A stretch of 50,503 nucleotides of DNA, filler included, from Jimgerdemannia flammicorona (Eukaryota): assembly GCA_003990765.1 (NCBI GenBank). It is 2 parts of 2 records of this genome, joined end to end, with 100 filler letters (N's around TTAATTAATTAA, not from the genome) between each part and the next. Parts side by side here need not be neighbours in the genome. Positions count along the whole stretch, not along the records: positions 25,306 to 50,503 come from RBNJ01000867.1; 1 more part is not named here. One strand, written 5' to 3'. Numbering within the stretch: the stretch's first letter is position 1; each line of letters begins with the position of its first letter. The notes beneath the pieces were generated by a model. That model was not told the DNA's origin. It saw only the letters and a program-made list of their open reading frames with translations, and searched no databases. This document shows positions 1,946 to 48,629 of this stretch, in pieces. Made by a program: the position numbers and the translations under genes.

Positions 1946-1967
1946 TCATTAAAATAACTTGACCTAA

Positions 1968-7063: not shown

Positions 7064-10000
7064 TGTAAGCATATAACCTCTAAGCCACTCAAATCACACA
7101 TTATCTCTAAACAAATCCAGAAATTATATATATAATCATGAAGCTGAGTCAAACTGAAGTTATAGCACACAAAGCTGAGTCAACTTGAAGTTACAGAAAA
7201 TAAGATTTACATAAACAGAATCTTACCAATTAGGACCAAATGTATATATATCAAGTACTGAGATATATCAAAATAAGAGAACTACAACAAACTAAATAAA
7301 CAACTTAAACTTCTAAACATATACATAAATATAACTACTAAGATCTACAACTGCATCTGTGCTGACATTTGGAATACTATTGTCAACTGAGCTGCACCTC
7401 CTCTGCCCCTTATGAATATCCATAGCTTAGCACCTCTCTACTTTATAGAAGTATGATAGAATGCCCTGAACATACTTAACAAGACCTATCAAATCAAATA
7501 AATCTCAAGCTACTATCAGATCAGTCACCTCCAAGAAGACTTGATCAAATACCACCATAATACCAATATTACCCAGATATTCCAATACCAGAAACTCATT
7601 GTCTGTAAATACAGAGAACTCTTATATGAGTACAGCTCTTTTATTTTCTATCTCTGAGTTATTATCACTAATATGGTTACAACTCTATCCTATAGTCAAT
7701 CAATAATATAATATAAGAACTCAACTACAAGTATATCAAGTATATTCAAACCACAGATAGAACCTTTCTATACCCTAATGACCACATTCTGCAAATTCCT
7801 CAAGTTGGATATGCCATAAAGAATATCTATAATATAATCTGATTTAATGATAATGAAGCAGAAGATAATAATCCCTTTGATGCTAACATGATCTTGAGCC
7901 AGAGATCTCTGCTAACTCTGATCACCTTATCAGTCTCACTGATGAACTTATAACAGTTCATAACCACCTATGAGACCTATTGGGATAATGACCACTGATA
8001 TGAATACTAGCCTATATTCACTCCCAATTACTTCAACTACAATAAAGAGACTGGAGAATACAACCTATATCTCCAGACAATCCTTGAGATTGAATCAACA
8101 ACCCTACTATCTGAGTATAAATGATATGAAGTACAACTACCAGTATACTACAACTCTATAACTCATAGTACCATAATCTATAGAAGGTATGCAGATAGCA
8201 AATTCAGACAATGTACCCCTCCTTCATCCACCAACTCCTTACTCAGTATATAAAATAGATAATGCTATTCTGTAGAATGGTGATGAAGTTCTAATATATT
8301 ATTATCTCAATGAATAGAGAGAAGTAATCTGCAAACCATTCTTCCTAGATGACTACTTCATCAGAGATAATATCATTGATAGTGATATTATCAAAGATTA
8401 CTCAGATAGCATCTAAATCTATAAATAGCTTAGCAGCCATTGGTATAGTTAGATTAGCCTTGTACAATATAACTATGAACTAACTCAGCAGTCAGATGAT
8501 CTTTTGACATATCAGATCACACTTATACTATATGACTGCATTCTGACTCAGCAAAGTATTAAGTACTATATTCATATTCAGCATAGTCCAGATAGCTCCT
8601 TACTAGTATAAATACCCCCTTCTTCAGACCTCAGAATCTCAGACTTGAATATATAGAATAATCTGAACACAACTTCTAAATACTTCTACACAATATTCCT
8701 TCACACAACTACTCCTAGTATAGCAATATCATGAATAGTAAATAAACCTATTTAATAACCCACAAACCACTTTTAAGTAAATTTACTTCCTGTTAGGTCT
8801 CACTTCTAACCCTATTATGAAATTTTCTAATTAGGTATTGTCTATAGTAATATGCTGATTCAACTAAGCTGGTCTTAGTTTCTTAAACTTCCTAAATTAT
8901 GGAAAATTCTGAATATTTAAAACTAGTCCAAAAAAGGACTTTGGTTGAGATGTCAACTCAATCTTGAAATCAATAAGTATAGAGGATATACTCTATATGA
9001 AATTGATCTTGACCTTAAGAAAATAGTCTTCCAGAATATCCAAAACATCCAGAAAACTCTTTCAAAACTATATAATGATTACTCTAATAGATAACCTTCT
9101 TACAACTTAGTAGCAGTAGTTTATAATCCAATTTTACTTTAAGATACTTCTTTACTCTGCTATAAACTACTTTAAGAATTCCTACAAATTGATATAAAGC
9201 CCAATCTCCAAACTGGAATTTATTCTGAACTATCTGACAATCTGGAGAGAATTGAATCTGATGTATAAGGACAATTTGACCTCCACACCTATAATAAGTG
9301 GAATAGACTTCATTTAAAGAAAGAAGTCTCTAATTAAATCAGCAGATAGACAAAACCCTATACACCAAACTCCTTGCTCTACACCCTGCAAGTCAAGATG
9401 AAGAAGGTCTTATAGAAGTCTTCTTTACTCTTCTCAACAAGAGTTTTGTCAGCTCCACAAATCTGAGTGACCTAGGATAACCAGCAGCAGTCTTTCTAGC
9501 CTTAGTTCCTCATGAAGCTCAAGCTTTCATAGCCAAGTAGCTCAACTCTACCAACTTTCACTGCACTAAGACCAAGACCACATTATACTACTACTTCCAG
9601 AATAGTAAGATCTGACATATTCTTAAGGAAGAAGCAAGAGAAACCCTTCATCAACAACCTGACTCTAAATTAGAAGCAGACCTAGCTACAATCTTACCTG
9701 CAACTGAAACCAATACTGAACCAGAACTTGATTTTGAATTAAGCCTATCTGAAATCTGATATATAACTGATTCTATCTACTTTGATATCAAGTAAACTCA
9801 ATTATACAGGAACCAAAGCCAAGAGGAGGAGGAGTATCTCAGTAAATTCAATCCCAGATATACTACTGAAGGAGACATACCTCCATCAGGACAGAACACA
9901 CCTATATAGAAACAGACAGCTATCTACTAAGCCCTTACTCCAGACTCACAACTATTACTCTAGCAACTTATATAGTCTCAAAGAACACTATCACACTCTG

Positions 10001-23690: not shown

Positions 23691-23713
23691 TATGTGCATG
23701 GATAAGCTCAGGT

Positions 23714-25094: not shown

Positions 25095-25205
25095 GTCACT
25101 TGGACGTCCCTTTATTATGCACTCTCTATAGATAATACATAAATGCCTCCATCCACCTTAACCGATGCCCCTTGGGTCCCCCTCCCCACCCACCCCACCC
25201 CCCTG
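25058..25205 (-). mobile_element. 3' terminus (poly(A), AATAAA, G-rich tract) of another LINE copy running into the gap
   Basis: Poly(T) followed by ATAGTCACTTGGAC...TTTATT, the same terminus as 25306 and 125. Confidence 0.8.
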
Positions 25206-25305
25206 NNNNNNNNNNNNNNNNNNNNNNNNNNNNNNNNNNNNNNNNNNNNTTAATTAATTAANNNNNNNNNNNNNNNNNNNNNNNNNNNNNNNNNNNNNNN
25301 NNNNN
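25206..25305. other. Artificial scaffold gap: N44-TTAATTAATTAA-N44
   Basis: Exactly 100 bp with a six-frame stop linker in the middle. Confidence 0.95.
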
Positions 25306-25479
25306 TTTTTTTTTTTTTTTTTTATAGTTACTTGGACTCTGCCATTTATTACCCGTCTATTAATAAATATACAGTTCACCCTCCCCCTACCCAATCCCCA
25401 TAGGGGTGCCTCTCCCCCTACTCATATGAACAAAGACCACTTTCTCACCCACAACACCAACCCTCCCCCCACTCTGCCT

Positions 25480-28400
25480 ATAGATTTGTTCTACCAAATG
25501 ACACCTGCGACCTCCCTTCAACCCCTAATCAAGCCACCAGCCCATCAAGGTGTCTTCCATAAGGCTCCGCTATCTCAGCAACCTGACCTTGGAGCCAAGT
25601 TTTCTCCCATCCTTAAAAACAAATAACCAGTGACTGGCCAGCCCTACCCAAATAGCCAAGGCCCAACCCAACATCAGCCACTCCTTCCCCACCCCCCCCA
25701 CCAGTCTTTCCCTTAAATCCTCCCAATGCCCCCACACTTCAGCTCTCCTACCCACTACTCCCAGATGCTCCCCAATGTTCTGCCAAAAGGTTCCAAGTAC
25801 CTCACACTCTCCTAGCCAATGTTCAGATATCTGTACATATCCCCCTTCCTGCCCTACATTATAACACTCTTCACAGTCGAAGCAGCCTCCCTCAATAAGG
25901 TGACCAGAGTGAAAGTTGAGCATGATATTTTGCCTCAGCATATACCACCAGACCACCCAATACTTCAGCAGCAGCCACCTCCTCACCTTGGCACTCCAGG
26001 CCCAAATGCTATGCCAGTCCCACTCCTCGCCGATTCCTACTCTCTGCCAACTGCTAGGCCACTGATCCTGGCCTGGTCCCCATTGGCATTTGATCCCATC
26101 CTCAATGTCAAACTCAATCAAGAGAATACTGCCTAGTAATACTCGGTCCCATCTCCACATCACTGGGTCCCAAGCCTCCTCCCCTTCATTCCCCTGCCAC
26201 CTAATTCCAATGCGGTGCACCCCCTCTGCCACTCCTCACCAGAAGCCTCTGAATCGCAATTGTCCAGAATTCTGAAGGCCCACAAGTGCTAGGAGATCAC
26301 CAGTCGAACCCCTTGGAGAGGACCTCATCTCCCAGACCTTCTGCAGTAGGGGAACCCAACCACTCCCTCCCAACTCCACCGCTCACTTCAGCCACCATAC
26401 TCGCAAACAGTGCAACCTCTTAGGAAAGTCAACCAGCCCAAGTCCCCCACTCGCCACTGGTAAGGACAAGACCTCCCAGCTGATCTGACTCCGCCTTCCA
26501 GCCCAGATCCACCCCTTGGCCAGCTTCATCAAATGCTTTACCACCCAAGCTGGGAAGTCCAGATGATAAGCCAGATACCACACCTTTGGCAGCCAATAGA
26601 TATTCAGAATTGAAACGTGTCCTGCCAGAGACAATTGGCAGCCCCCCCAACTCCGCAGGGCCTCCTCCCAAATGCCAACCTGCTGCTCCCACCAAAGTCT
26701 GGGCAGAACTGACCCATACACTGACAGGTAGATACCCAAGTACCTCACCACCTCACCAGCAGGGATAATTATACCAATAATCTCCCTGCCCACCAGACTA
26801 TTGCCTAACACCATTGTTTCACACTTATGCCAATTAAGTCTAGTCTCAGAGTTTGCCTCATACTACTCCACTGTCTCCTTGAGCTTCTCAACATCCGTAA
26901 TTGATTTCAGACTGACCACCATGTCATCTGCAAATGCCCCTACTTTCCACCTGATGCCAAAGATAGAGAGCCCTACTATCTTCTGCCAGATTCTGTCCAT
27001 GAAGGGATTCAGAGACAAAGCATACAAAATGGGGGATAGTGGGTCCCCCTGGGGCACCCCCCTACCCAGGGAAAATGCCACCCCTCTATGTCCATTACAT
27101 ATGAGTGCTGCCCTACTCCCTTCCAGTAGGCTGATCATGGCGGCCCTGAACTGTTGTGGGACCCCAATCCTATCCAGAACTTTTGCCAGCCAGACCTGTC
27201 GCACTCAGTCATAAGCCTTCTCTTGGTTCAAAAAGACCAGACACCCATCCAGTCCACTGGCTTGAACCCCTTCAATAATGCTGTACACCCATGCTGTATC
27301 ATCCCTGATGAGCCAGCCTCCCACAAAGCCCCGCTGCTCCTCACTCAAGACATGCTGGGCCACCTTTTGCAACCTTGCAACCACCACTTTGGTAACCAAC
27401 TTTCTGTCTATATCCAACAGCATAATCGGCCTCCAGTTCTTCCAGTCCTCTCAGCCGCCTTTGTTCTTATAAAGCAATGTCACCAGCCCTAGATCCTGTT
27501 CTCCCACCTATCTCCCTGTCTGTAGAATCCAATTCCACAGTGCCGTCATCTCTCCCAGTACTCCAGGGACTCCCACCATCCTTTTCCAGAAGTCCCAGGG
27601 CAGACCATCCTCCCCAGGTGCCGTACCCAAGGTTGTTGTGGCAAGAACCTGGTGGATCTCCTCCTCTAGTACCAGCAGTACTAAATCACCCAACCCATCT
27701 GCTCGGGTAGGGTACCAATTCTCCAATGCTCGATCAATGTCCTCAGCATCTGCCCCCCCCTCCTCCTTACTCCACAATCTACTCCAATGCTCCTTTAATG
27801 ATCCAAGAATATCTTGTACCCTATGCACCAATATGCCATCAGCATTAAACACCCCCTCCCACCTTTGCTGCACCCTTCTTGCCTGAAGGGCTCTCGTAAG
27901 AAACTTTGAGGGCCACTCTCCTTCCTCCAGTCCCTGCCAACGAAGTCTCGCTGCCAGACCCTGGACCCTTGCCTCTTCCTCATCCTGCAGTACCTGTTGT
28001 AGTTCCGCCACCTCCATTCGTAACCTTATCAATCACCAGTCCTCCTCCCCCTCTAATGTCGCCAGTCTCGCCCAGTCCTCCAAGAGTCTAGAAAGTCTAC
28101 TAGATGTCCACTGCACCTGCCTCCTCTTCTGTCTCCCAGCCTCCATACCAGCCTCACTCCAGAAGGTCCTGGCCATCTCCTTCATCCTCATCCACTGAAT
28201 ATCCACTGGGACCCCACACTGCCTCCAGCACTCCACCTGCAATTGAACTACTTCAGTCCATTTATTCCACCAGATCTTATCATCTAGTAAGGAGGAATTG
28301 AGGTGCCAATGTCCAGGCCCATCCCCACTTCCCCCAAAATGTCCCTGCCCTAAAAGCCCCAATGATCTGACCAAGGGCACCATTCTGCCTCCAGCGACTT

Positions 28401-29040
28401 CCAAACATCCAAGCCCCAGCACTGGCTGTCAGAATCCAATCAATCCTTGTCCCCAAGCCCCCGGCCCAGTGTGTGTACACCCTCCTATTCCCCCAGCATT
28501 CCCTACCCACATCTATCAGAGCACTCAGTCTTTCCACTTCCTCCCATGCCTCCAGTCCTCCACTCCGACCCACAGCCCCTCGTCCTCCATCAGTTCTATC
28601 CCTCAATACATCGTGGACCATATTGAAGTCCCCACCGAACACATCCACCCCAACATCTGCAAGAATTCCACTCTCCTGTAGGCCTGTCACCCACTCCACC
28701 CACTCACCCTGCACCGCAGGGCAATAACAAGAGCCCACTATGACAGGCTCCCAACCTGTGCATATCCACTCTCCCCAGACCAATCTATCTCCCCAGCTCT
28801 GCACATCCTGTACCTTCCCTCTGCCTTTCCGCACCAGAATTCCAACCTTGCCCTTCCAGACTGCCTCACCTCCCCACTCCTTCATCCATTCCAATCTATC
28901 TAAGTCATCCTCACACCTGACATCCTGCAAGAGGAAGAGATCAGCCTCCAATTCCTTCAGCCAAGTAAAAATGTTCCTACATTGATAAGCCCCCTGTAAC
29001 CCATTCACATTCAGGAAAAAATGTTGGTTGTACTATTCAT
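25480..29040 (-). pseudogene. LINE ORF2 (APE endonuclease - reverse transcriptase - Cys/His domain), with stops and frameshifts
   Basis: Consecutive ORF pieces 28280-29008, 28033-28422, 27508-28032, 27205-27423, 26863-27204, 26383-26814 and 25570-26232. Confidence 0.9.
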
Positions 29041-29049
29041 AAGGAAGAT

Positions 29050-31105
29050 TATATAGTTTCAGATGAGTCCTTTACTGCTCCATGTCCACTTTCTCCTATG
29101 CCCTATCCAGGTCGTGCTCAGCAATAACTTCTTCTTTCTTGGCCCTCTTAGCCTCCAATTCAGCCAGGATCTCAGCCATCTCCCCATCCTTCTTTTCCTC
29201 AAACTCCTCATGGTACTCTATACAAGCCTCCTGCCAGAGCTGCAGTCCATGCTGCTTAGTCCAACAGTGCGCAGCCTGCTCACCCGCCATGACTGCCAGA
29301 GTAGCTTCCCTCTCCTTATCCACCTCATACCCCTCTTCCTCCAAGTATACTACCAGAATTTCTGCCTTCAATGCTGCCACCACTCCATCACCCTGCAGGA
29401 TCCTCGTCCAATGCTCATCGCTCATCACCCGGAGGTCAACTTCCCCCAGCTCCTCTGCCACCAAGTTGTTCATCATCCGGTACACCCAAAGCAAGTTTCC
29501 CACCTCCTTCCCTCCTGGGGTCGCTGGTCTCCCCCCATCCAACATTGTAGTGTCAGCCCCTATACTCACCAACTCATTCCATCCCTCCTCTGGGACATCC
29601 ACCAATTCCTCTTCCCCAGTCACCTCTACCAATCCCCCCTTTGCCACATTTGGGACTCCAAAGCATACCTGCTGAGTACCGTGCATCGGCACATCCTCCA
29701 CCACTCTACGGCTTGCCACCGGACCCCTTCTGATAAGGGGAGAGGGTGAAGATGAATCCTCCCAGGTTTCCTCCCAAACCTCGAGTGTGCCATCTTCATA
29801 TGGATTCCTGCTCGGCCCCTTCCCAGCCTCCATCTGCCCCTCCTCCTCATTCTTTCCACTCTCAGCAGCCCAGACACTCACCTCAGCACCTCCCGTGGTT
29901 GCACCATCACTTGCCTTCCTCATCGCCCCTGCCCCCATTTTCACCAAAAATTTCCTCTGCCTTCTGCATCCTTGAGACCTCTCCCACACCTCCTTGTTGA
30001 TGCGAACTCTCTTCCCTCCAACCACCTCAAGATGCCTTGCCTCCTCGAATGCCTTCCAAGCCTTCAACCTCCTCTCCACCACCCCACTCAACTCCTTCAG
30101 CACTTCCAGCAAATCCTCCTCCTCCTCCTCGCTCCCCTTTACTCTCGTCACCTTACACAAGAAAGCCCCTCACACTATCACTGAGGGCCAGTCCCAAGCC
30201 TTCCCAGCAGCCTCCCTCCCGGCCAACCGAATCCTGACATCAACATCCCCTGTCTGGAGGGAGGTTCCTTCCCACACTCTGAACCCAATATCGACCACCT
30301 CCCCATACTCTGCCATGATCTCCTCAACCCTCTTCCTCATCTCTACAGCAGTAACTGTGGGAACTCCTTTTACAAGAAGCTGTACTACTCTTGGGTCCCA
30401 CCTCAGGCATCTCATCATCAGTATGCATACCTCACACACTTTCATTCCAGCCTTCAAAGCCTCCTCCAGTGGTCCAGCCTCCTCAAATCCCACCTCTACC
30501 CCTTCTAGGCCCTTCAGGAACTTAACAGATGCTGCACCACTCATCTGCTTCATGATCAGCCCCAGAACTATTTTTGCCATCACCACTAAGCCCTGGAAAC
30601 ACATCGTGACTGCAAATTACGAGATCGACTTTTTGAGTAACAGAGCCACCGCCAGTCCCATTACACCATCCACCAGGTCCCCAGGCCTTGTGCCCTTCCC
30701 ACTGCTCAGCTCATCATCAGCAGTCCCATCTAGATTTTTTTCCAGATTGCCCATCACACCTCCATCAGCAGTCCTCACCTCAGCCGCAACCCCCCCAGCT
30801 CCACCCCTATGGCCCTCCAGAGAGGTACCCCCAAGAGGTTGCTGTCTTGTGGCCCTCACTGGCACCTTTTCCCCCCTCAGCCAGCTCTCCAGTCCAGCTC
30901 CCTGCTGACCCCCCTTCACCTTCTCTGCAAAACTCACTCCGCCAGACCCTTGACCCCCAGCTCCGCCCCCTCCTCCACCACATCCTCCTGCCAGCAGGCC
31001 CCTCATACTTCCCCCCAGGCTGGGGCCTCTCCCTACTTGCTGCCATTCGAATGCTCCAGGGCCACCCTGCCCAGTATGCACCTCAGAATGCTTGTTGGTT
31101 GCCAT
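29050..31105 (-). pseudogene. LINE ORF1 (Gly-rich N-terminus, possible RRM-like segment, acidic coiled-coil C-terminus), disrupted
   Basis: ATG at 31105 (MATNKH...); ORF pieces 30617-31105, 30170-30604 and 29096-30160 lie directly upstream of ORF2. Confidence 0.75.
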
Positions 31106-32211
31106 GATACTAGTAGCTTGTCTCCAGAAACTGTGTCGAAAGTGTTGAGTGCAGCCAAGACACCTGAAATGGGTAGCCTCGGGCCTCCTGACCCCCCCTG
31201 ACGACTGGGGCCCAACCCCGCTGACCACCAAAAGAAGCTGATAGTGACACCTACCACCTAACTACGCCGCACCAATCAAAAGGCCCCACTGAAGCAGCAC
31301 CTGCCCCAGCTCTGATGACCACCCCCAGCCTGGCACCCTACTGGTTCACCATTATCGCCCTTCCTCCTATCTGTGACGGCCATCTCCCCTCTCATCCCGA
31401 CAACACCCGAAAAACAGTCACCTACGCCAGAACCGTGCTCGCCAGGAAGCTCACCAAAGCCAGAGGGCCCCACCACAGGCACCGAGGACCTGCAGGTAAC
31501 CTACACTGAGCACTTGACACCCAAGGTCGGCCGACTCCCTATGTAGCCCAAGACACACCGAGACAACTCCTTGTTGGTGACGGCAAAAGGAAGAAGGCGC
31601 CGCACCAAAACGGGTATACCCCAGATGTAGCCGAAGGCACCAGAATCCATGAAAAAGTGGAGGAAGTACCGATCCGACACCAATAAAGGGGCAACTCATC
31701 ACCATTGCCCTCCTCCCACCATATCCCTGCAGGCACAGCAAACCAACCCGAGGTAGAGGGGGTAATAATAGGGGAAAGGGGACTCGGAAGGTCACCTACC
31801 AAACCTTATAACTGGTAAGGTAGCGGAGAAAGGAGCTAGTGCTACATCCATATCTAGCATAGTCTAGATAGCCCCTCACTAGTATAAATACCCCCTCCCC
31901 CAGACCTCAGAATCTCAGACTTAAACAATTTGAATACAACTCCTGAGCACTTCCCCACAATATCCCTTCATACAACTACTCCTAGTATAGCAATATCATG
32001 AATAGCGAATAAACCTATTTAATAACCCACAAACTACTCTTAAGTAAATCTGCTCCCTGTTAGATCCCACTTCTAACCCTGTCATGAAATTTCCTAATTG
32101 GGTATTGTCTGCAGCAATACGCCAATTCAACTAAGCTGGTCTTAGTTTCTTGAACTTCCTGAAATACGGAAAATCCTGAACATCCAGAACTAGTCTGAAA
32201 AAGGACTTTGG

Positions 32212-35200
32212 TTGAGACATCAATTCAATCTTGAAATCAATAAGCGTAGAGGACATACTCCATATGAAATTGATCTTGACCTTAAGAAAACAGTATTTCA
32301 GAATATCCAGAACTTTCAGAAAACCCTTCCAGAACTACGTAACGGTTACCCAAAAAAGCAACCCTCTTACAACTTGGTAGCAGCAGTTTACAATCCAATT
32401 CCGCTTCAAGACGCTTCCTCACCCTGCTACAAACCCCTCTGCGAATTCCTACAAGTTGGTATAAAGCCCAACCTCTGAACTGGAATTTATCCTGCACCAT
32501 CTGACAATCTGGAGAGAATTGAACCTGACATACAAGGACAATTTGACCTCCACACCTGTAACAAGTGGGACAAACTTCACTCAAAGAAAGAAGTACTCCG
32601 ATTAAACCAGCAAATAGGCAAAATCCTATTCACTGAACCCCTTGCACTACACCCAGCAAGTCAAGATGAAGAAGGTCTTATAGAAGCCTTCTTTACTCTC
32701 CTCAATAAGAGTTTTATCAGCTCCACAAATCCGAGTGACCTAGGACAACCAGCAGCAGTCTTTTTAGCCTTAGTTCCTCATGAAGCCCAAGCCTCAGTAG
32801 CCAAGTGGCTCAACTCTACTGACTTTCACCATACCAGGACCAAAACTGTATTATACTACTAATTCCAGAACAGTAAGGCCCACTATATTCTTAAAGAAGA
32901 AGCAAGAGAAACCCTTCATCAACTACCTGACCCTGAACCAGAAGCAGGCCCTGCTACAGCTCTACCTGAATCAGAAACCAACACTGAACCAGAACTTGAC
33001 TTTGAATTAAGTCTATCTGAAATCAGATATATAACTGATTTCATCTACTTTGACACTGAGCAAACTCAATTCCATGGAGACCAAACTATAGAGGAGGAGG
33101 AGTATCTCAGTGAATTCGATCCCGGATACACTACCGAAGGAGATACACCTCCATCAGGCCAGAACATACCTACACAGCAACAAACAGCTATCTATCAAGC
33201 CCACTCCAGACCCACAACTACTACTCCAGCAACTTATACAGACTCAAAGAACACCCTCACACTCTGCATCAGTACCTCAAGTAGTACCAGTAACACCACT
33301 ACCAGTAGTCCAACCACCTCCAGTAAACAATTTGGCAAACCAACAGATTCTAGACCTCACAGCCCAGGTAGCCATAATGGCAGCAACCATTACTGCCTTA
33401 GCCGAACAAACCCAACCTACCAAAAATCTGAGCCTACCTACCTTCAATGATACTGCACAAGAAGTTCAAAGCTTCATTAGTATAGTTGATACCAACTTTG
33501 AAGTCAATCAATGGACTAATGAGTGAGTTGCTGACCATCTTCTGACAAACAATCAAGACCACACTCTGGAACAACTCTTTGCTACTACAGCCTATGTCCA
33601 CCAAGTTGTTATATTCTTCTGAGGACCTGTCGAAGAATGGTGGTGAACTCTTCCTGAAAAACTCCTTATATGGGATATCCAACCTGCAGTAGTTGCTCAG
33701 AATGCAGCAAACAATGCCCCAGGATATGGAGCCCATCCTGCAGCCTCTGGACTCAAACAACTCATGATTGCTCAATACCGCAGCGAAACCATGATTGCTG
33801 AATCTCAAGTAAAACTCTGCAATCTCAAATTCAATGTACATGGCAAAGAAGAATTCGAAACCTTCTGTACAAAACTCGAATCACTCCTGAATATCATTGG
33901 CCTAGAATACATTGCCAATGACAAAGCACGAAATGGTATAAGAGCAGACCATTTATTCAATGTCCTGCCGGAATGGCTTACTAGAAAAATCCGAGAACAA
34001 GGCTGCTCAGTTGGTTGTGATCACCAACAATGGTGCCTAGCAAGAATCAAGACTATGGTCAAGCGAATCCTAACAGCTGGACCAATGCTGCCCTGAAGAC
34101 AATTCAACAACAAGGAAAAGACTTGGACCAAGAAAGAAGAACCCAAGCATGAAGCATCCCAAGCTCCCTCCACATCCACCTTATGGACACCCAGAAATCA
34201 TGAACCCACTCAGCTGAGTACCTTTAAGAAACTCACTGAAGGAGAAAGGAATGAACTCCGAAGAAGTAGAGCATACTTCTATTGCTGAAAGACAGGATAC
34301 ATAGCCAGTACCTGCCCTAACCGAAAACCCCGAACAGCAACAAGAGCAACAGTTACCATGCTGCACCACCTAAACAACCTGACTACCAGAATACTAGACT
34401 TTGTCAAGTTAAGATAAACTGCGAAGGCCCCAACCAAAGGAAGTCAAATAGCAGCTGGATATGACCTGTATGCAGCTGAAGAAGCTACAGTTTCTAACTA
34501 AGAAGTCAAGCAAGTCTACACAGAAATCAGTATCCAAATTCCTGAAGGACATATTGGAAGAATATGCTGTCGCAGCAGCCTAGCACTGAAAGGACTCTCA
34601 GTAGAAGGAGGAGTCATTGATGAGGATTATACAGACGAAATTATTGTCCTCATCCGAAACCACAGTTGGACACCCTTCAAGATCCCCATAGGTTTCTACA
34701 TTGCCCAGATCCTATTCAAAAAAATTGAGTCAACTCTGACAGTCAAAGAGGTCCCTGAACTACTGCCCACCATCTGAGGATCCAAAGGATTTGGCTCATC
34801 AAAAAAGGCCCCAGTCTAACCTACTATGAACAAAGAAGAACAATTCTACAAGAAAATTGAAGACGGATATATACCAAGTGACTGATGCCCTCATGGCATT
34901 GTAATGTACTCTTCCCGAATGATTGATGATTTCTTCTCTTGTGTCAATGAACTGGCTCAAAGAAGAACCAACAGAAGGAAAGCTCCCACAACTGAAATCA
35001 CTACTATTAGATCAGACAAACTGCTTACACTTAAAGCTTTTGTTAATCAAGCACCAGTCAAGATTATGATTGACAGCGGTACTTCCAGGAATTTCATCAA
35101 TGAAGAAACAGCCAACAGACTCAAGGTCTTCACCTCTCCAGTACAACAAACTCAAGCAGTTGCTACAGCTGATGGAACCTCACATGTCATTAGCAAAGAA

Positions 35201-38200
35201 GTCCACAACCTATCCTTCCGAATTGGTAACTATCGAGTACATATTACTCTCCAAATTGTACCACTTCCTGACAATGAGATCATTCTTGAAACACCATGAT
35301 TGAACCAAGAGAACCCCATGATCGATTGGGTAAACCATTCTCTGACCATTAAGAAAGGATGCCATAATTTCAAACTGCAAGGTGAAAAGGACCCACTCAA
35401 CTCTAGCAACCCTGGACCAAAGATCACTCATATCAACAAGCTACAACTTAAGAAATTAGCCAAGAAATGCCCTTTCTTTGCTATCTCTATCTGCCTATCC
35501 AAAGGAGAACCTGAGAACTCTGAAGAAGACTTTTCCAAAGTCAACAGCTGTATTAGACCCCTACTCCAGAAATTCTGAGACATATTCCCAAAGAAGCTTC
35601 CGAAAGGCCTACCTCCTAAACGAGCAGTAGACCATGCGATCAAGACCATTCCAGATGTCAAGCCAGCCTTCAAGTCAATCTACCACATGTCTCTGAGAGA
35701 AATAGATGCACTCAAGAAGGAAATAAATGAACTCCTAGAACAAGGATTCATCAGACCCAGTATATCACCCTATGGTGCACCAGTCCTCTTTGTTGTAAAG
35801 AAAGAAGAAGACCTGCGAATGTATATTGATTACCGAGACCTTAATGAACAGACCATCAAGAACTGTTGCCCACTATCAAGAATCGATGAAATATTCGATA
35901 GGCTTACCAACTCACAATTCATGAGCTCTTTTGATCTATAAAATGGTTACTGGCAAATTGCTATGAAAGAAGAAGACATCTACAAGACAGTCTTCCAAAC
36001 CCACTATGGACACTTCAAATTCCTAGTTATGTCCTTTGGCTTAACTAATGCTCCAGCAACCTTCCAGACCCTGATGAATACCATCCTATACCCCTATCTA
36101 GACAAATTTGTTGTTGTCTATATTGATGACATCCTAGTCTTCAGCAAAACTCTGGAGGAACATCTCAAACATCTTGAACTAGTACTACTGAAACTGCGAG
36201 AAAACCGACTCTTCACAAAACTCAGCAAATGCGAATTTCTCCTGAAAGAAATTCAATTTCTTGGACACATTGTCACACCAAATGGAATCAAAGTGGACCT
36301 CAGCAAAATCTCCACAATCAAAGATTGGCCCAGACCTAAGAAGCTGAAAGACCTCCAGTCATTCCTAGGACTAGCAAATTATTACAGGCGATTTATTGCT
36401 AACTTCACCAAGATTGCTACTGCCCTGACTCAAATGACCAAGCATAGCAAGAAAGAGGAACAGCCCTGGACCACGAAACAAGAGAAAGACTTCAACAACC
36501 TTGTAAATTGGGGACCCAAACAAGATACTGCCTTTCAAGCACTAAAGGATGCCCTGATAACTACCCCAGTACTTCAAGCAGCAAATTCTGCTCTGCCATA
36601 TAAAGTTACTACTGATGCCTCTGACCTAGCTCTTGGAGCAGTACTCATGCAAGAAGGACACTCTGTGGCCTATCACTCCCGCAAGTTCAATGATGCTGAA
36701 ATTAACTACACAACTCACAAGAAGGAAATGCTAGCCATTGTAGACACTCTGATCAAATGGCGACCCTACCTAGAAGGAGCACACTTCACTATATTGACTG
36801 ACCACAAGTCATTAGTTAACATCAAGACCCAGGCTACTCTTTCTTGAAAGCAAGCCAGATGGATGAAAGTCCTCACCAACTTTGACTATGAAATCCAGTA
36901 CCGCTCTGGCAAGGAAAACATTGTTGCCGATGCAATCTCCAGACCACTAATTGAAGAAGTTATCCAAACCCTCACCTTGGTTACAAACTCCATCATGGAA
37001 CAAATTATCACAGTATGTGCTGATGATAAGGAAGCTCAAGTACTTCGAGAAATCCTAAATAGTGACAATGCTGATAAGCATACCCAATATCATCAATACC
37101 AACTCAAGGACAATGCTATCTACTACAAGAATAGATTGTATGTTCCAAACAACCGAGACCTCCGAAGGACTATCCTATTCGAATGTTATGATGCACCTAT
37201 AGCTGGACATTTAGGATTTAACAAATGCTATGAAGTTATCTTCTGAAACTTCTATTGGCCCCACATAGAAGATCAGCTAAAAACCTACATTACTTCCTGT
37301 GATGCCTGCCAACGCAATAAGTCCTCAACACTAGCAAAACCTGGCCTACTCCACCCTATCCCGGTACCATCTGCAAATTGGGAACAAATCTCTATAGACT
37401 TCATTATACAACTACCCTGAACAAAGAATAGGAAGGATGCAATTGTTATCTTCATAGACTATCTCAGCAAACAGGCCTACTTTGTGCTAACTACTACTAC
37501 TGCAATAGCACCAGACATAGCCATACTCTTGTTTGACAATATCTTCCGCTATCATGGTCTTCCTAAGATTATTGTTAGTGACCAAGATCCAAAATTTACC
37601 AGCCATTTTTAGAAAGCCCTCCATGCACACCTTGGAACAAAACTTGCACTATCCACAGCCTTTCACCCTGAAACCAATGGCCAAACCGAAAGAATGAACC
37701 AAACTCTGGAACAAATACTAAGAAACTATGTTTCCTACAGACAAGATGATTGGTATGAACACCTCACTGCAGTTGAGTTTGCCTATAACAATAGCAAGCA
37801 AGCCTCTCTTGGAATGACCCCATTCTTTGCCAACACTGGACAAAACCCAAACACTTCTCTGACACTTATCTGAACTACTGAAGAACTCTCCACAGTTGAA
37901 GCTATTGAAGAATTCCTGCTCCAAATGCATAATCTAAGCTAGATCGCAATTGAGAATTTATCACGAGCTCAAGAACAACAGTCACAGTATATTAACCAAC
38001 ACCACCAAGAAGAAACCTTTGATATTGGAGAAAAAGTTCTACTAGATATCTGAGGATACTGAGTTGACAATCTTAAGCATAGACCATCTACAAAACTGAA
38101 CAGTAAGTTCATAGGACCATTTGAAGTCATTGCATAAGTCTCTCCAACCTCTTACAAATTGATGCTACCAGACATCATTAAGATCCACCCAGTCTTCAAT

Positions 38201-38461
38201 GTCCAATGTCTCAAGTGATACAACAAGAATGATGATGAACTATTCCCAAACCAGACCACTGAACCACCTGCATCTGTCATTATTAATGATCAAGAAGAGT
38301 ACAAAGTTGAACAAATCCTCAACAAATGTGGCCACAAGAACCACCCTGAGTATTTTGTCAAATGGAAAGGATACCCGATTCATGATGCAACATGGAAACC
38401 CAAGACCAACCTCCAGAATGCTACCAACTTAGTTCAGGAATATGATTTCTTGAACAACTAA
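32212..38461 (+). pseudogene. B2 polyprotein frame (N-terminal extension - Gag - zinc knuckle - dUTPase - PR - RT - RH - IN - chromodomain)
   Basis: Consecutive ORF pieces joined over single stops. A 2-nt deletion at ~33200 is absent from the B1 copy. Confidence 0.85.
34394..34800 (+). pseudogene. dUTPase domain of B2
   Basis: AAGYDLY...GRICCRSSLA...GGVIDEDYTDEI...IAQILF...*GSKGFGSS: all five trimeric dUTPase motifs. Confidence 0.95.
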
Positions 38462-38860: not shown

Positions 38861-40345
38861 TGTAAGAGGGTTGCTTTTTAGGGTAACCGTTACGTAGTTC
38901 TGGAAGGGTTTTCTGGAAGTTCTGGATATTCTGGAAGACCGTTTTCTTATGGTCAAGATCAATTTCGTATGGAGTACGTCCTCTATGCTTATTGATTTCA
39001 AGATCGGGTTGACGTCTCAACCAGAGTCCTTTTTCGGACTAGTTCTAGATGTTCAGGATTTTCCGTATTTCAGGAAGTTCAAGAAACTAAGACCAGCTTA
39101 GTTGAATTGGCATATCGCTGCAGACAATACCCAATTAGGAAATTTCGTGACGGGGTTAGGAGTGGGACCTAACGGGGAGTGGATTTACTTAAGAGTGGTT
39201 TGTGGGTTATGAAATAGGTTTATTCGCTATTCATGATATTGCTATACTAGGAGTAGTTGTATGAAGGGGTATTGTGGGGAAGTACTCAGGAGTTGTGTTC
39301 GGATTGTTCAAGTCTGAGATTCTGAGGTCTGGGGGAGGGGGTATTTATACTAGTGAGGGGCTATCTGGACTATACTAAATATGGATATAGCACTTAGTGC
39401 TTTGCTGAGTCGGAATGCAGTCATGTAGTACAATAGTGATCTGACAGGTCAAGAGATCGTCTGACTGCTGAGTCAGTTCACAGTCACGTCGTATAAGGTT
39501 AATCTATCTATACTATGACTGCTAGACTATTTATAGGTTTAGGCACTATCTGGTTAGTCCTTGATGACATCACTATTGATGACATCATCGCTGGCAAAGT
39601 CTGAGTAGTTTTCTGACTTCTGACATCATCAGTTTCAAGGTGTCGTCACTTCTATCTCTTGTAAGATTAAGGCTGTCCTTAGTGGCGGTGGTTGTACAAG
39701 GATAACAGGTCTTGGTTCTCTTTTTTTTTGGTCTGCTGGCACATTTGCGAGGACTGGCCATTCTCGTCTAGGGCGAGGGCTCCCAATGTCGCAGCTGGGG
39801 GTTCGAACCTCTCGGAAATGATATTTTCTGTAATCCGAGACAATTTCTAGTAGTAATATCTGTCACATGGATGGCTTGAGATTGGTTTCGATGTTGTCGG
39901 CTTTCTTGAGTTCAGATGAAGTGTCCGTCACTCTCCGACGGAGATGACATAGATAGAGCGAACAGAGTTGTTCAAATGCGTTTTGCTTCTGCTAAGTAAT
40001 GAGGTCTTGTATAGTCACAGTGTGTCTTGGTCTTGAGTTGATAAGTGCAGTTCGTGAACCTTTTGGTAGATGAGATAGGGTTCTTCTTGTCTCAATTTGA
40101 GTTTGGTACTTTTCGGTTTCTTTTTGTAATAGTACAGTACACCAAACTAGTTATAGCAGTTCAGAATCAGTCTTATGGTTGTAGTACTTCTTCTAGTATT
40201 CTTGTATCTTGGCGGTGGGTTCTCGTACTTGCTGGCATATTTCGTGTAACCAGATGATCTCTTGTTTTGTGGTCTCGCATGTGGTTTCCAATTTAGTTCT
40301 GAGGATGCCATGCGATTTTGGTGGCTTGGAGGTTGTGTGCTTACA
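38861..40345 (-). mobile_element. Solo LTR of a family-B variant (1485 bp) inserted in reverse orientation 36 bp upstream of the B2 3' LTR
   Basis: TG...CA ends. 38861-39590 is the reverse complement of ~41685-42412, and 40270-40345 matches the LTR start. TSD CTCCG/CTCTG (38856-38860, 40346-40350). Confidence 0.9.
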
Positions 40346-40381
40346 CTCTGAGAGGACATCGAAAGCTAAGAAGGGGAGAGT

Positions 40382-42412
40382 TGTAAGTACACAACCTCCA
40401 AGCCACTGAAATCACATGTGACCTTCAAACAAATCTGAAAATCACCTGCTTGATCATAAAGCTGAGTCAAACTGAAGTCACAGCACACAAAGCTGAGTCA
40501 ATATGAAGTCATGGAACACAAGATTCACACAAATGGAATCTTACCAATCAGGACCAAATGCATATATATTGAGTACCAAGACACGTCAAAATAGAGAACC
40601 AAAACAAACAATAACTATAACTTCCAAACACACAAACATGACCACTGAGATCTACAACTGTATCTGCGCTGACATTTGGAATGCCATTGTCAACCAAGCT
40701 ACACCCCCTCTGCCCTTCATGAATATCTATAGTCTAGCACCCCTCTACTTCATAGAAGCCCAATGGAATGCTCTGAACATGCTTAACGAGACCCACCAGA
40801 TCAGACAAATCTCAAGCTACTACTAGATTGGCTGCCTCCTGGAAGACATGGTCGAACACCACTATAACACAGACATTACCCAGATGTCTCAACACCAGAA
40901 ACTCATCGTCCGCAAATACAGAGAACTCTTCTATGAGTACAGTATCTTTATTTCTTGCCTCTGAGTCACTACCAGCGAAATGGTTGCTACCCTGTCCTAT
41001 GGCCAAATCGACAATATGATATAAGAACTCAACCATAAGTACCTCAAGTATGTTGAAACTATAGACAGAACCTTCCCACACCCCAATGATCATATCCTGC
41101 AAATGCCCCAAGTCAGATATACCATGAAAGATGTCTACGATATAATTCACTTCGATGAAGATGAAGTAGAAGACAATGATCTCTCTGACACTGACATGAC
41201 CTCAAGCCAAGGATCTCTACCAACCCTGATCACTCCACCAACCTTGCTGATGAACTTACAATAGTTCATAACCACCTACAAGACCTATTGGGACAATGAC
41301 CACTGGCATGAATACCAACCTCTATTCACCCCTAATTACTTCAACTACAATGAAGAGACCAGAGAACACAACTTATATCTCCAGACAACCCTCAAGATCG
41401 AACCAACCACTCAACCACCCGAGTATGAGTGACATGAACCACAGCCACCAGCTTACTACAACCCTGCGACCCATAGTACTGTAACTTATAAAAGGTACGC
41501 AGACAGCGAATCCAATGAAAGTGAAGATAATGCACCCCTCCTTCGCCCACCAACACCTTATCCAGTATATGAGACAGATAATGCAATCCTGTGAGATAGT
41601 GATGAAGTTCTGATGTATTATTACCTCAGCAAACAAGGAGAAGTAATCCGCAAACCACTTTTCCTAGATAACTACTTCATCAGAGATGATGTCATCGATG
41701 GTGATGTCATCGAAGACTACCCAGACAGTGCCTAAACCTATAAAAAACTTAGCAGTCAAAGTATAATTAAATTAGTCTTGTATGACATGACTGTGAACTG
41801 ACTCAGCAGTCAAGTGATCTCTTGATATGTTAGATCACACTTGTACTACGTGACTGCATTCCGACTCAGCAAGGCACTTAGTGCTATATCTATATCTAAC
41901 ATAGTCCAGATAGTCCCTCACTAGTATAAATACCCCCTCCCCCAGACCTCAGAATCTCAGACTTGAACAATCCAAACACAACTCCTGAGTACTTCCCCAT
42001 AATATCCCTTCACACAACTACTTCTAGTATAGCAATATCATGAATAGCGAATAAACTTATTTAATAATCCACAAACTACTCTTAAGTAAATCTGCTCCCT
42101 GTTAGGTCCCACTCCTAACCCTATCACGAAATTTCCTAATTGGGTATTGTCTGCAGCAATACATCCAATTCAACTAAGCTGGTCTTAGTTTTTTGAACTT
42201 CCTGAAATATGGAAAATTCTGAACATCCAGAACTAGTCCGAAAAAGGACTTTGGTTGAGACGTCAACCCAATCTTGAAATCAATAAGCATAGAGGATGTA
42301 CTCTATACGAAATTGATCTTGACCTTAAGAAAACAGTCTTTCAGAATCCAGAACTTCCAGAAACCTCTTCCAGAACTATGTAATAGTTACCCAAAAAAGC
42401 AACCCTCTTATA
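40382..42412 (+). repeat. 3' LTR of B2 (2031 bp); TATA-like TATAAATA at 41925, AATAAA at 42050
   Basis: Follows the PPT and is collinear with 7064-9104. Its 3' part matches 31837-32371. It ends TA (CA in other copies). Confidence 0.92.
40638..41735 (+). pseudogene. ~365-codon ORF of unknown function inside U3 of the family-B LTR
   Basis: ATG 40638 to TAA 41735 in one frame (MTTEIYNCICADIWNAIV...DDVIDGDVIEDYPDSA) with six internal stops and no frameshift. Confidence 0.75.
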
Positions 42413-42610
42413 GAGTGCTTAGTATATATATATTCAGTTCTGATTGGTAAGATTCTATTTATATAAATCTTATATTTTATAACTTTGAGTTGACTCAGCT
42501 TTATACTCTATAACTTCAGTTTGACTCAGTTTTGTAATCTTATATGTGATTTCCAGATTTGTTCTGAGGATGATGTGTGATTTCAGTGGCTTGAAGGTTG
42601 TGTACTTATA
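42413..42610 (-). mobile_element. First ~200 bp of an older family-B LTR, opposite orientation, into which B2 appears to have inserted
   Basis: The reverse complement starts TATAAGTACACAACCTTCAAGCCACTGAAATCAC and is collinear with 40382-40580; it is cut exactly at the B2 end. Confidence 0.85.
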
Positions 42611-47450: not shown

Positions 47451-48629
47451 TTTTTTTTTTTTTTTTTGTTTTTTGTCTTTTTTTTCCCCTAGTTTTTTTT
47501 GTTTTATAGACTCTATGTCCCACAGATTTTTATTGGAAGGGAACCTAGACTATATAGACCAAAACCCTCCCCCACCACCCATCAAGTACTGCCAGGTGTA
47601 GCAGGGCAAAGTACCCTGCATCTCATTCTGCACACCATACTCTCCCTACCACCAGGGGAAATCCAGCCATATGTCAATGACCAAAAGCATATATCTGAGA
47701 ACCTAATATATATACAAGGCCATGCTCGAGCCAAATAGAATAGCCCCTGCCACCCCAAAGAGAATGACAGGCAAAGAAAAAACCCTCATCAAAGTATAAT
47801 ATAGTGGGTAGGACCTGGTTCTCCCAGTCAAGGTGAGTAGAGGACTTACATGTGAGGTAGGAGAAGACCCCCAATACTCCACTACTCAAGCCTGTAGGCC
47901 TTGATCACATTGCCATGTCAGCTCCTGGTTCCAGTTGAGTACAGCCAAGACACCTGAAATGGGTAGCCTCAGGCCCCCCGACCCCCCCTGACGACCGGGG
48001 CCCAACCTCATGAATTGCCAAAAGAAGCCAAGAGTGACATCTATCACCTAACCACACCGCACCAATCAAAAGGCCCCACCGAAGCAGCACCTGCTTCAGC
48101 TCCGATGACCACCCCCTGTATAGCACCCTATTGGTTCACTGTAATCACCCTTCCTCCTATCTGTGATGGCTATCTCCCCTCCCATCCCAACATCACCTGA
48201 AAAACAGTCACCTATACCAGAACTGCACTTGCTGGGAAGCTCGCCAAAGCCAGAGGGCCCCACCACAGGCACTAAGGACCTGCAGGTAACCTACACTGAG
48301 CACTTGATGTCCAAGGTCAGCCGACTCCCTATATAGCCCGAGACACACCGAGACAGCTCCTTGTTAGCAATGGCAAAAGGAAGAAGGCACCACACCAAAA
48401 CAAGTATACTCCAGATGCAGCTGAAGGCACCAGAATCTGCAAAAAAGTAGAGGAAGCACCGATCCAACACTGAGAAAGGGGCAACTCATCACCATTGCCC
48501 TCCTCCCACTATGCCCCTATAGGCACAGCAAATCAACCTGAGGTAGAGGGGGTAAAAATAGGGGAAAGGAGACTTGGAAGGTTGTCTACCAAACCCTGTA
48601 ATCAGTAAGGTAGCAGAGAAAAGAGCCTG
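47451..48629 (-). mobile_element. Complete non-autonomous retroelement: LINE 5' UTR + unrelated ~430-bp 3' part + poly(A)
   Basis: 47934-48626 is collinear with 31144-31836. Poly(T)-rich tail at 47451-47505. TSD TCTGCAAYATATTC at 47437-47450 and 48630-48643. Confidence 0.92.

What the first reader, a model, noticed from the sequence alone, without database searches (positions are those of the whole stretch)
40638..41735. A protein-coding gene embedded in the U3 region of a 2-kb gypsy LTR
Seen: a 366-codon ATG-to-TAA frame with no frameshift lies wholly within the LTR, upstream of the TATA (41925) and AATAAA (42050). It has six stops, a density of the same order as in this element's own gag-pol. 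Two stops are CAG in the B1 copy and three fit CpG decay; one TAA is shared by both copies. The product has a helical-looking N-part, an acidic stretch, a Pro/Tyr-rich linker (PPEY, PPAY) and a short C-terminal domain, with no motif I recognise. Established: U3-encoded genes are known in retroviruses (MMTV sag, lentiviral nef); I know of no such case in fungal chromoviruses. Inference: an accessory gene that would also be spread by solo LTRs.
Basis: partly seen in the sequence, partly recalled or inferred. Interest (0 to 1): 0.8.

Follow-up and report, generated by a model that had tools for sequence, protein, structure and literature searches.

The report
Decayed protein gene inside a retrotransposon LTR
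A 2-kb terminal repeat of a fungal-type gypsy retrotransposon carries a now-broken copy of a real, previously undescribed protein-coding gene, an arrangement otherwise known mainly from complex retroviruses.

Summary
A 366-codon frame with six internal stops (40638-41735) lies wholly in U3 of a 2,031-bp LTR (40382-42412). Four independent copies fix the LTR's ends.

It is a decayed real coding sequence.
- The frame has 7 stops against 18-24 in shuffles.
- Two intact database proteins match it: P0002 (128 aa, 83% identity, same start Met) and P0001 (247 aa, 61% identity).
- Contigs from four public runs mostly read C at the first letter of four of the six stops.
- Differences between the two window copies avoid codon position 2 (84/42/107) and are enriched in synonymous changes, in this frame only.

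The window copy is a pseudogene, decayed by C>T/G>A changes at CpG and CpA.

The protein has no known family. Predictions give a helical N-part at low confidence, then an acidic and a Pro/Tyr-rich part with two PPxY motifs.

My reading is an accessory gene of a dUTPase-bearing chromovirus. It is copied into both LTRs because the polypurine tract lies upstream of it. It may have its own promoter.

Function and expression are untested. No full-length intact copy was seen, and a related mobile LTR lacks the ORF.

The parts
40382..42412 (+). 3' LTR of element B2 (2,031 bp, TGTAAG...CTTATA): U3 with the ORF, then R and U5
   Evidence: It matches B1 7064-9102 (79%), the B2 5' LTR remnant 31837-32369 (92%) and solo LTR C 38863-39593 (90%, minus strand).
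40368..40380 (+). Polypurine tract AAGAAGGGGAGAG, 1 nt upstream of the LTR start
   Evidence: read directly.
40455..40516 (+). Two tandem 31-bp modules, each with TGAGTCA; candidate upstream activating sites for the ORF
   Evidence: D2, 81% alike. TGAGTCA at 40463 and 40494, with the same pair in B1 (7145, 7176) and in fragment D (42491, 42522).
40563..40568 (+). TATATA, about 70 nt upstream of the ATG; candidate TATA box of an ORF promoter (inference)
   Evidence: Kept in B1 and in fragment D. The variants listed (40569, 40570, 40574) lie outside it.
40638..41735 (+). The LTR ORF, here a pseudogene: 366 codons, six internal stops
41767..41871 (+). Two modules (63-bp spacing) that are inverted copies of the upstream modules; TGACTCA at 41799; they sit 54 nt before the main TATA
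   Evidence: (D1; I1-I3, 21-32 nt, 74-81% complementary).
41925..41932 (+). TATAAATA, main promoter of the element; identical in all four LTR copies
42050..42055 (+). AATAAA poly(A) signal in R
   Evidence: kept in all four copies.
7064..9104 (+). 5' LTR of truncated element B1. Its ORF copy lies at about 7331-8416 and is more decayed: ATG>ATA, 1-nt and 11-nt deletions, CpG o/e 0.00
31837..32371 (+). Remnant of the B2 5' LTR (last 535 bp only, so the ORF part is missing), followed by the primer-binding site TGGTAGCAGCAG at 32375
32372..38461 (+). B2 internal region: gag (CCHC), dUTPase, protease, RT, RNase H, integrase and chromodomain in one frame with scattered stops
   Evidence: Pfam: RVT_1 7e-32, RT_RNaseH 1e-31, dUTPase 8e-29, Integrase_H2C2 9e-17, SH3_Tf2-1 2e-14, Chromo 4e-13.
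38861..40345 (-). Solo LTR 'C' (1,485 bp) inserted between pol and the PPT of B2, with target duplication CTCCG/CTCTG. It shares the first 80 bp and the last 733 bp, including the ORF's last 18 codons. Its 672-bp middle is unrelated and shows no coding frame.
42413..42609 (-). Fragment 'D': the first ~200 bp of another LTR of this family in inverted orientation, cut by the B2 insertion

Best explanation
The frame is a dead copy of a genuine protein-coding gene of about 365 aa, from an orphan family. The gene is carried inside U3 of the LTR of a dUTPase-bearing chromovirus (Ty3/gypsy) family.

Shown:
- The polypurine tract lies upstream of the ORF, so the ORF is part of the LTR. It is present in a 5' LTR (B1) and a 3' LTR (B2).
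- Other copies and relatives keep the frame open.
- The window copy was inactivated by C>T/G>A decay at CpG and CpA.

Inferred:
- Reverse transcription copies the gene into both LTRs at every round.
- The gene is transcribed either as the 3' end of the genomic RNA or from a promoter of its own in the first 250 bp of U3. That candidate promoter is two TGAGTCA modules, then TATATA about 50 nt on, then the ATG about 70 nt further. This layout mirrors the main promoter (two inverted copies of the same modules, then TATAAATA about 54 nt on).
- The transcript would end at the LTR's own AATAAA. Each LTR would then be a complete gene.

The protein: predictions give a helical N-part (aa 3-141, low confidence), then an acidic linker, a Pro/Tyr-rich part with two PPxY motifs, and a conserved C-terminal tail.

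My best guess at function is an element-serving adaptor or regulator. One version docks on a host WW-domain ubiquitin ligase of the Rsp5/Nedd4 type. Another is a transactivator acting on the shared modules. This guess carries low confidence (about 0.2 for either specific version). The confidence given for this explanation refers to the core claim: the relic of a real coding gene that is part of the LTR.
For: Coding.
- The frame has 7 stops against 19 and 33 in the other + frames and 18-24 in shuffles.
- P0001 is 247 aa and intact, with 153/250 identical and 199/250 similar residues to aa 115-364. It has only two 2-residue gaps, and reads Q, Q, Q and W at stops 129, 209, 265 and 319.
- P0002 is 128 aa and intact, with 106/128 identical residues and the same MTTEIYN start.
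- Read against the window's codons, 21 of its 22 differences need only one C>T or G>A change in the window copy. This is inference, because P0002's DNA was not seen.
- One search lists 20 rows of best-supported other letters that fall inside the ORF. Twelve are synonymous and 8 are not. Of those 8, 4 remove stops 63, 109, 129 and 209, and 4 give the residue of P0001 or P0002.

Constraint within the window.
- B1 and B2 differ at 84/42/107 sites by codon position.
- There are 97 synonymous differences against a context-matched null of 81 +/- 5.8 (P = 0.001-0.0055 across four null runs).
- The two shifted frames give z = -0.8 and -3.0. The non-coding 3' part of the LTR gives z = -0.8 to 0.3.

Inside the LTR. 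LTR starts lie at 7064, 40382, 40345 (-) and 42609 (-), each with a different flank. LTR ends are followed by a primer-binding site at 9104 and at 32371.

Promoter-like layout.
Against: - No single intact full-length copy was seen. P0001 and P0002 cover aa 115-365 and aa 1-128 only.
- TAA at codon 129 is shared by B1 and B2, and P0002 ends exactly before it. In run X1 only 295.7 of 607.1 depth reads C there. Part of the family may therefore carry a split or truncated gene.
- Only two matching proteins were found: 1 of 300 and 1 of 19 candidates, and 1 hit in 1.84 billion representatives.
- No family, fold or motif hit was found.
- The models are poor: pLDDT 31 and 50.5, and 0.39 on a 0-1 scale for the Atlas model.
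- No RNA or protein evidence exists.
- The ORF-less LTR 'C' inserted with a target duplication. The ORF is therefore not needed in cis for mobility.
- The same mutation test gave no signal in the gag region, so its power is uncalibrated.
- The two PPxY motifs are not present as such in P0001 (PLSEY, PLAY).
Confidence: 0.78

Rival explanations
1. A passenger. A piece of a host gene or of another element's gene was picked up into U3 by template switching and carried along without serving the element. The constraint seen would date from before capture, or from a short period after it.
For: There is no retroelement domain. The U3 block is exchangeable, since subtype C has 672 bp of unrelated sequence in its place. 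The ORF is dispensable in cis.
Against: No host-gene relative turned up in 1.84 billion representatives, nor among longer proteins (0 of 869 candidates). The constraint is seen between two LTR copies, that is, after the ORF was already in the LTR. A 61%-identical relative still keeps the frame open, though its context is unknown.
Confidence: 0.12
2. A nested small transposon. The block from about 40455 to 41871 is an old insertion of an element with terminal inverted repeats, carrying its own ORF, that became fixed in the LTR.
For: The ORF is flanked by inverted 21-32-nt matches (I1-I3). The left breakpoint against subtype C (about 40460) coincides with the start of the left arm.
Against: The arms are tandem pairs of a motif that includes a near-palindromic TGASTCA site, as expected of regulatory modules. 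No target duplication is evident. Subtype C keeps the right arms (TGAGTCA at 39469) but not the left ones, so the block does not excise as a unit. No transposase domain was found.
Confidence: 0.05
3. A chance open frame in a C/A-rich, stop-poor strand, with no coding history.
For: The strand is poor in stops generally: the non-coding middle of LTR C has 7-8 stops per 226 codons in all three frames. One antisense frame of the ORF region has only 8 stops.
Against: Only one of the three sense frames is depleted (7 against 19 and 33). Two intact database proteins match this frame. The codon-position pattern of differences fits it.
Confidence: 0.03
4. The LTR is mis-delimited and the ORF is really an internal 3' ORF between pol and a shorter LTR.
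For: The B2 5' LTR remnant holds only the last 535 bp.
Against: B1 carries the ORF upstream of its primer-binding site and gag, with a foreign integrase fragment directly before position 7064. The polypurine tract abuts 40382. The B2 5' LTR remnant begins directly after a LINE-like element, so truncation by that element is likely.
Confidence: 0.02

Closest known systems
MMTV sag (superantigen ORF in the U3 of a betaretrovirus LTR). Recalled; only a search listing of a review was seen.
   Same: The ORF starts after the polypurine tract, lies wholly within U3, ends before the promoter/R region, and is therefore present in both LTRs.
   Different: No sequence or fold likeness could be shown. There is no membrane anchor. 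The carrier here is a chromovirus-type retrotransposon without env, probably fungal. The route of expression is unknown.
Foamy virus tas/bet with an internal promoter, and lentiviral nef overlapping U3 (recalled)
   Same: These are 3'-terminal accessory genes that reach into U3. For foamy viruses there is also a second promoter, and the gene's product acts on both promoters. That is the model for the two-promoter reading here.
   Different: Those genes only overlap U3 and start upstream of the polypurine tract. Here the whole ORF is in U3. Transactivation is pure conjecture here.
Additional ORFs (aORFs) of plant LTR retrotransposons (PMC7264820: abstract and two passages seen)
   Same: An extra ORF of unknown function beside gag-pol, family-specific and without known domains.
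   Different: The abstract and the introduction passage seen speak of aORFs in elements with the usual LTR-gag-pol-LTR layout. The review has no occurrence of 'in/within/inside the LTR'. This ORF is in the LTR itself.
Variable U3 of the crapaud LTR in Podospora (PMC10787394: passages seen)
   Same: Subfamilies of one element differ by a swapped 5' half of the LTR upstream of the TATA box, as LTR C differs from B1/B2 here.
   Different: The crapaud variable part is under 200 bp and non-coding. Here the swapped block is 1.2 kb and holds a gene.
dUTPase-bearing fungal chromoviruses such as PosPlaTy3 and Tmt1 (PMC2864245: passages seen)
   Same: Same kind of carrier: Ty3/gypsy with a chromodomain and a dUTPase domain. 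A figure legend in that paper also mentions an 'add. ORF' of unknown function in some elements.
   Different: The figure is not held, so the position of that additional ORF could not be seen. No LTR-embedded ORF is mentioned in the passages I read.

Membership tests
Chromovirus (Ty3/gypsy with chromodomain): the carrier element | Pol domain order PR-RT-RNase H-INT with a chromodomain at the C-end of the integrase | tested here: met
   gag-asp_proteas 889-972, RVT_1 1143-1301, RT_RNaseH 1408-1504, Integrase_H2C2 1594-1652, rve 1671-1766, SH3_Tf2-1 1886-1950 and Chromo 1977-2024, all in one frame.
Chromovirus (Ty3/gypsy with chromodomain): the carrier element | LTRs with TG...CA ends, a primer-binding site after the 5' LTR, a polypurine tract before the 3' LTR, and a 4-6-bp target duplication | tested here: met
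   TGTAAG...CTTACA ends, primer-binding site TGGTAGCAGCAG at 32375, polypurine tract at 40368-40380. A 5-bp duplication was seen for solo LTR C only (CTCCG/CTCTG).
U3-encoded retroviral accessory gene (sag-type architecture) | ORF wholly between the polypurine tract/LTR start and the TATA/R, and present in both LTRs | tested here: met
   The ORF is at LTR positions 257-1354 and the TATA at position 1544. It is present in a 5' LTR (B1) and a 3' LTR (B2).
U3-encoded retroviral accessory gene (sag-type architecture) | Sequence or fold homology to Sag, Nef, Tas or Bet | tested here: not met
   No Pfam family at E<=1 for P0001 and P0002 or at E<=0.01 for the window frame. The best PDB sequence hit has E = 0.33. 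The Atlas gave no usable hit.
U3-encoded retroviral accessory gene (sag-type architecture) | Expressed as protein from a spliced or internally promoted mRNA | not testable with these tools
   No run on record as RNA holds the stretch. Only contigs could be laid.
aORF of LTR retrotransposons (as reviewed for plants) | Located in the internal region, between the 5' LTR and gag or between pol and the 3' LTR | tested here: not met
   The ORF lies downstream of the polypurine tract, inside the LTR.
PPxY (late-domain / WW-ligand) proteins | A conserved PPxY motif | tested here: inconclusive
   The window has PPEY at 260-263 and PPAY at 270-273. P0001 has PLSEY and PLAY. B1 reads LLSEY and LPVY (by eye). 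The L and S codons are one C>T step from Pro, so the motifs may be ancestral, but that is inference.
Real protein-coding gene (general) | The frame is kept open in diverged relatives, and substitutions are biased to synonymous sites | tested here: met
   No full-length intact copy was seen.

The most novel reading that the evidence does not exclude
The LTR is a complete, self-promoted gene: upstream modules, TATA, ORF and poly(A) signal. A chromovirus doubles this gene at every retrotransposition and leaves it behind in solo LTRs. Its product feeds back on the shared modules of both LTR promoters, or hijacks the host Rsp5/Nedd4 ligase through PPxY motifs. This would be the first U3-encoded accessory gene of a non-retroviral LTR retrotransposon, and a convergent parallel to sag, nef and tas of complex retroviruses.
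Probability: 0.25. Interest if true: 0.8.

Novelty: new variant of a known kind. Interest (0 to 1): 0.6.

Why it matters
LTRs of retrotransposons are treated as non-coding promoter and terminator units. Annotation pipelines mask them, and insertions are dated from LTR divergence on the assumption that LTRs evolve neutrally.

A conserved protein gene inside U3 would matter in four ways:
- Complex-retrovirus-like genome organisation would have arisen in an env-less retrotransposon, probably fungal.
- Every solo LTR of this type would be a potential gene copy.
- LTR-divergence dating would be biased for such families.
- There would be a new orphan protein whose role in transposition or host interaction can be tested.

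My seven literature searches found no description of an ORF inside the LTR of a retrotransposon (passages). The searches cover only the held open-access library and exact phrases, so they do not prove that it is not in print.

Tried and rejected
Resources that were not available.
- No whole genome is held.
The contexts and DNA of P0001 and P0002 could therefore not be seen, and no dN/dS on their DNA was possible.

Searches that found nothing.
- JGI metagenome contigs: protein patterns gave 521 stretches, none confirmed. A 24-nt conserved R-region pattern gave 0 matches.
- Viral contigs: 12 stretches, none confirmed.
- Longer proteins: 0 of 869 candidates.
- Pfam, PDB sequences and ESM Atlas gave nothing usable.
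- Rfam and tRNA scans of the window gave 0.

Structure.
- AlphaFold2 gave mean pLDDT 31 for the full length and 50.5 for the N-part. This is too low for a meaningful fold search, so none was run.
- No complex prediction was run. It would have needed a stand-in ligase, and the motif is a textbook one.

Sequencing runs.
- No RNA holder is listed.
- Depth differences along the LTR in run X7, whose RNA status is only a guess, were not interpreted, because contig depth cannot rank parts.
- A 9.6-kb X7 contig matches only 41188-41544 (69 other letters) and then runs on unlike the window. This stays unexplained.

Controls and rejected ideas.
- A positive control of the mutation test on the gag region gave no signal (z = -0.01 to 1.3). 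Most of the B1-B2 divergence there looks post-insertional.
- A gene on the antisense strand was considered (8 stops in one frame). It was rejected because both database proteins match the + frame.
Full report
**What is there**

The window is a nest of retroelements.

- Element B2 has a 5' LTR remnant at 31837-32371, followed by the primer-binding site TGGTAGCAGCAG.
- Its internal region reads in one frame as gag (CCHC), dUTPase, protease, RT, RNase H, integrase, SH3_Tf2-1 and chromodomain. That frame ends at about 38461.
- The polypurine tract is at 40368-40380, and the 3' LTR is at 40382-42412.
- A second, truncated element (B1) contributes a 5' LTR at 7064-9104. It abuts an integrase fragment of a different element on its left and its own primer-binding site on its right.
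- Two further LTR pieces of the same family lie in inverted orientation. One is a complete solo LTR 'C' at 38861-40345, with target duplication CTCCG/CTCTG. The other is a 200-bp fragment 'D' at 42413-42609.

Four LTR starts with four different flanks, and two LTR ends followed by a primer-binding site, fix the LTR boundaries. The frame 40638-41735 is therefore inside U3, at LTR positions 257-1354. It lies upstream of TATAAATA (41925) and AATAAA (42050).

**Is the frame more than chance?**

- It has six internal stops in 366 codons.
- Counting the terminal stop, that is 7, against 19 and 33 in the other two sense frames.
- Composition-matched shuffles give 18.5, 23.7 and 19.6 (P 0.0016, 0 of 3000, and 0.0003).
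- The strand is stop-poor in general. The non-coding middle of LTR C has 7-8 stops per 226 codons in every frame. The contrast between frames therefore matters more than the absolute count.

**Relatives**

The word-indexed protein search found one hit among 300 candidates of similar length. This is P0001, 247 aa, from a 998-bp contig.

- It aligns to aa 115-364 with 153/250 identities, 199/250 positives and two 2-residue gaps.
- It reads Q, Q, Q and W where the window has stops 129, 209, 265 and 319.

The search among shorter proteins found one hit among 19 candidates. This is P0002, 128 aa, from an 1180-bp contig.

- It starts with the same MTTEIYN and is 106/128 identical.
- Set against the window's codons, 21 of the 22 differences need a single C>T or G>A change in the window copy. 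Examples are R>C, R>Q, H>Y and the two stops.

Other searches added nothing.

- The exhaustive profile search of 1.84 billion representatives returned only P0001.
- The search among longer proteins returned nothing (0 of 869 candidates).
- The DNA and context of P0001 and P0002 could not be fetched.

**Other copies in public runs**

Twelve runs hold parts of the LTR. Most are soil metagenomes, and none is on record as RNA. I laid the contigs of four of them at 80% likeness, which gave 372 to 3350 laid pieces per run.

Of the 40 best-supported other letters that the tool printed (450 more were not shown), 20 fall in the ORF. classes them as follows.

- Twelve are synonymous.
- Four turn stops 63, 109, 129 and 209 into CAG, CGA, CAA and CAG.
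- Four give the residue found in P0001 or P0002 (L27, H76, D77, P204).

At 40824, 40962 and 41262 nearly all depth in all four runs reads C. At 41022 only 295.7 of 607.1 depth in X1 reads C. The places of stops 265 and 319 are not among the printed rows. These rows were selected by support and are not a random sample.

**Constraint within the window**

B1 and B2 differ at 233 of 1086 aligned ORF sites, almost all by transitions.

- By codon position the differences fall 84/42/107.
- Ninety-seven are synonymous, against 81 +/- 5.8 when the same changes are dealt out over sites of the same base and neighbour (P = 0.001-0.0055 across four null runs).
- The two shifted frames give z = -0.8 and -3.0.
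- The 650-bp non-coding 3' part of the LTR gives 36/33/31 and z between -0.8 and 0.3.
- Both ORF halves contribute (z = 1.9 and 2.1).
- The ORF part is also more diverged (21.5%) than the 3' LTR part (15.4%) or the gag region (16.4%).
- The same test shows nothing in the gag region. Most B1-B2 divergence elsewhere is therefore post-insertional decay, and the test's power is not calibrated.

**How the copy died**

From B2 to B1, C is changed at 68% of CpG, 45% of CpA, 32% of CpC and 13% of CpT. B1 has a CpG observed/expected ratio of 0.00. The window copy carries the same kind of decay relative to P0002 and to the majority of contigs. B1 further has ATA for the ATG, a 1-nt deletion and an 11-nt deletion.

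**The protein**

- No Pfam, PDB-sequence or Atlas relative was found.
- The Atlas model of P0001 has mean pLDDT 0.39 (0-1 scale). AlphaFold2 gives pLDDT 31 for the full length and 50.5 (pTM 0.45) for the N-part.
- The models place helices over aa 3-141 and mostly coil after that.
- After the helical part come an acidic stretch (about 173-187) and a Pro/Tyr-rich part with PPEY (260-263) and PPAY (270-273).
- The tail NYFIRDDVID...YPDS is conserved.
- In P0001 and B1 the Pro positions of the two PPxY motifs read L or S, one C>T step from Pro. Ancestry of the motifs is therefore plausible but not shown.

**Regulatory layout (inference)**

- Two tandem 31-bp modules with TGAGTCA (40455-40516) precede a TATATA (40563), and then the ATG follows.
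- Two inverted copies of the same module (41767-41871) precede the main TATA at a similar distance.
- The upstream TGAGTCA pair is kept in B1 and in D. The window holds 20 TGASTCA sites against 10.75 +/- 3.28 expected.
- This suggests two promoter units sharing one kind of binding site, with the ORF between them and the LTR's poly(A) signal serving both.

**Subtype without the gene**

Solo LTR C shares the first 80 bp and the last 733 bp, including the ORF's last 18 codons in frame. Between them it has 672 bp of unrelated sequence in which no frame stands out. C inserted into B2 with a target duplication, so ORF-less elements were mobile. Swapped U3 halves among subfamilies are described for crapaud in Podospora, where they are short and non-coding (PMC10787394, passages).

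**Comparison and novelty**

- The architecture matches MMTV sag, an ORF wholly in U3 (recalled). No homology could be shown.
- The carrier is of the dUTPase-bearing chromovirus kind reported from fungi (PMC2864245, passages).
- A review of additional ORFs in plant LTR retrotransposons has no occurrence of 'in/within/inside the LTR' (PMC7264820).
- Phrase searches for ORFs in LTRs of retrotransposons found nothing relevant (passage).
- I therefore rate this a new variant of a known kind: an accessory ORF of an LTR retrotransposon placed in U3.
- The host is probably a soil fungus. This is inferred from the element type and from the soil runs, and is not shown.

**Verdict**

That this is the relic of a real coding gene inside the LTR: about 0.8. 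That this copy is dead: near certain. That the gene serves the element and has its own promoter: about 0.25-0.4. Any specific biochemical function: low.

Noticed in passing
window 38861-40345 (-): A solo LTR of the same family with a swapped U3: 672 bp of unrelated, apparently non-coding sequence replaces 1.2 kb. It still keeps the last 18 codons and the stop of the ORF in frame. Target duplication CTCCG/CTCTG.
   Followed up: yes
window ~25200-31800 (-): A GC-rich (53%) block with long minus-strand frames, one of which matches Exo_endo_phos (1.3e-8). It is probably a LINE-like non-LTR retrotransposon. The B2 5' LTR remnant begins directly after it, so it probably accounts for the truncation. 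A 300-bp direct match links 31144-31443 to 47934-48233.
   Followed up: partly
window 13013-18930 (-): Another gypsy element on the minus strand, with RVT_1, a dUTPase/protease fragment and a CCHC knuckle. It is flanked by direct repeats at 13013-13312 and 18631-18930 (95%). Its LTRs seem short, and no LTR ORF was looked for.
   Followed up: no
window 32479-33450 (+): A 323-codon frame with one internal stop and no Met lies upstream of, and overlaps, the start of the gag-pol frame, in another reading frame. It has no Pfam hit. It could be the true N-part of gag shifted by an indel, or a further extra ORF. The mutation test against B1 was not significant (z = 1.25).
   Followed up: partly
window 6465-7063 (+): An integrase (Integrase_H2C2, 1.8e-14) of a different gypsy element, cut by the B1 insertion exactly at 7064.
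   Followed up: partly
window 7064-9104 compared with 40382-42412: The mutation spectrum is almost purely C>T/G>A, with both CpG (68%) and CpA (45%) as hot contexts. B1 has no CpG left (o/e 0.00) and 32% GC. This looks like a mix of methyl-CpG deamination and RIP-like mutation.
   Followed up: partly
window 23416-23727: A tandem array of a 33-bp unit, with 7 overlapping 114-nt copies at 62-85% identity.
   Followed up: no
window 41188-41544, in run X7 (record 29): A 9.6-kb contig of a run that may be RNA matches only this middle part of the ORF (69 other letters in 357) at its very start, then continues with unlike sequence. It may be a diverged family with part of the gene in another context.
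   Followed up: no
window 41022 (codon 129): The TAA is shared by B1 and B2, and P0002 ends exactly before it. About half of the depth in run X1 keeps T there. This could be a sublineage with a split gene or a recurrent CpA>TpA hot spot.
   Followed up: partly
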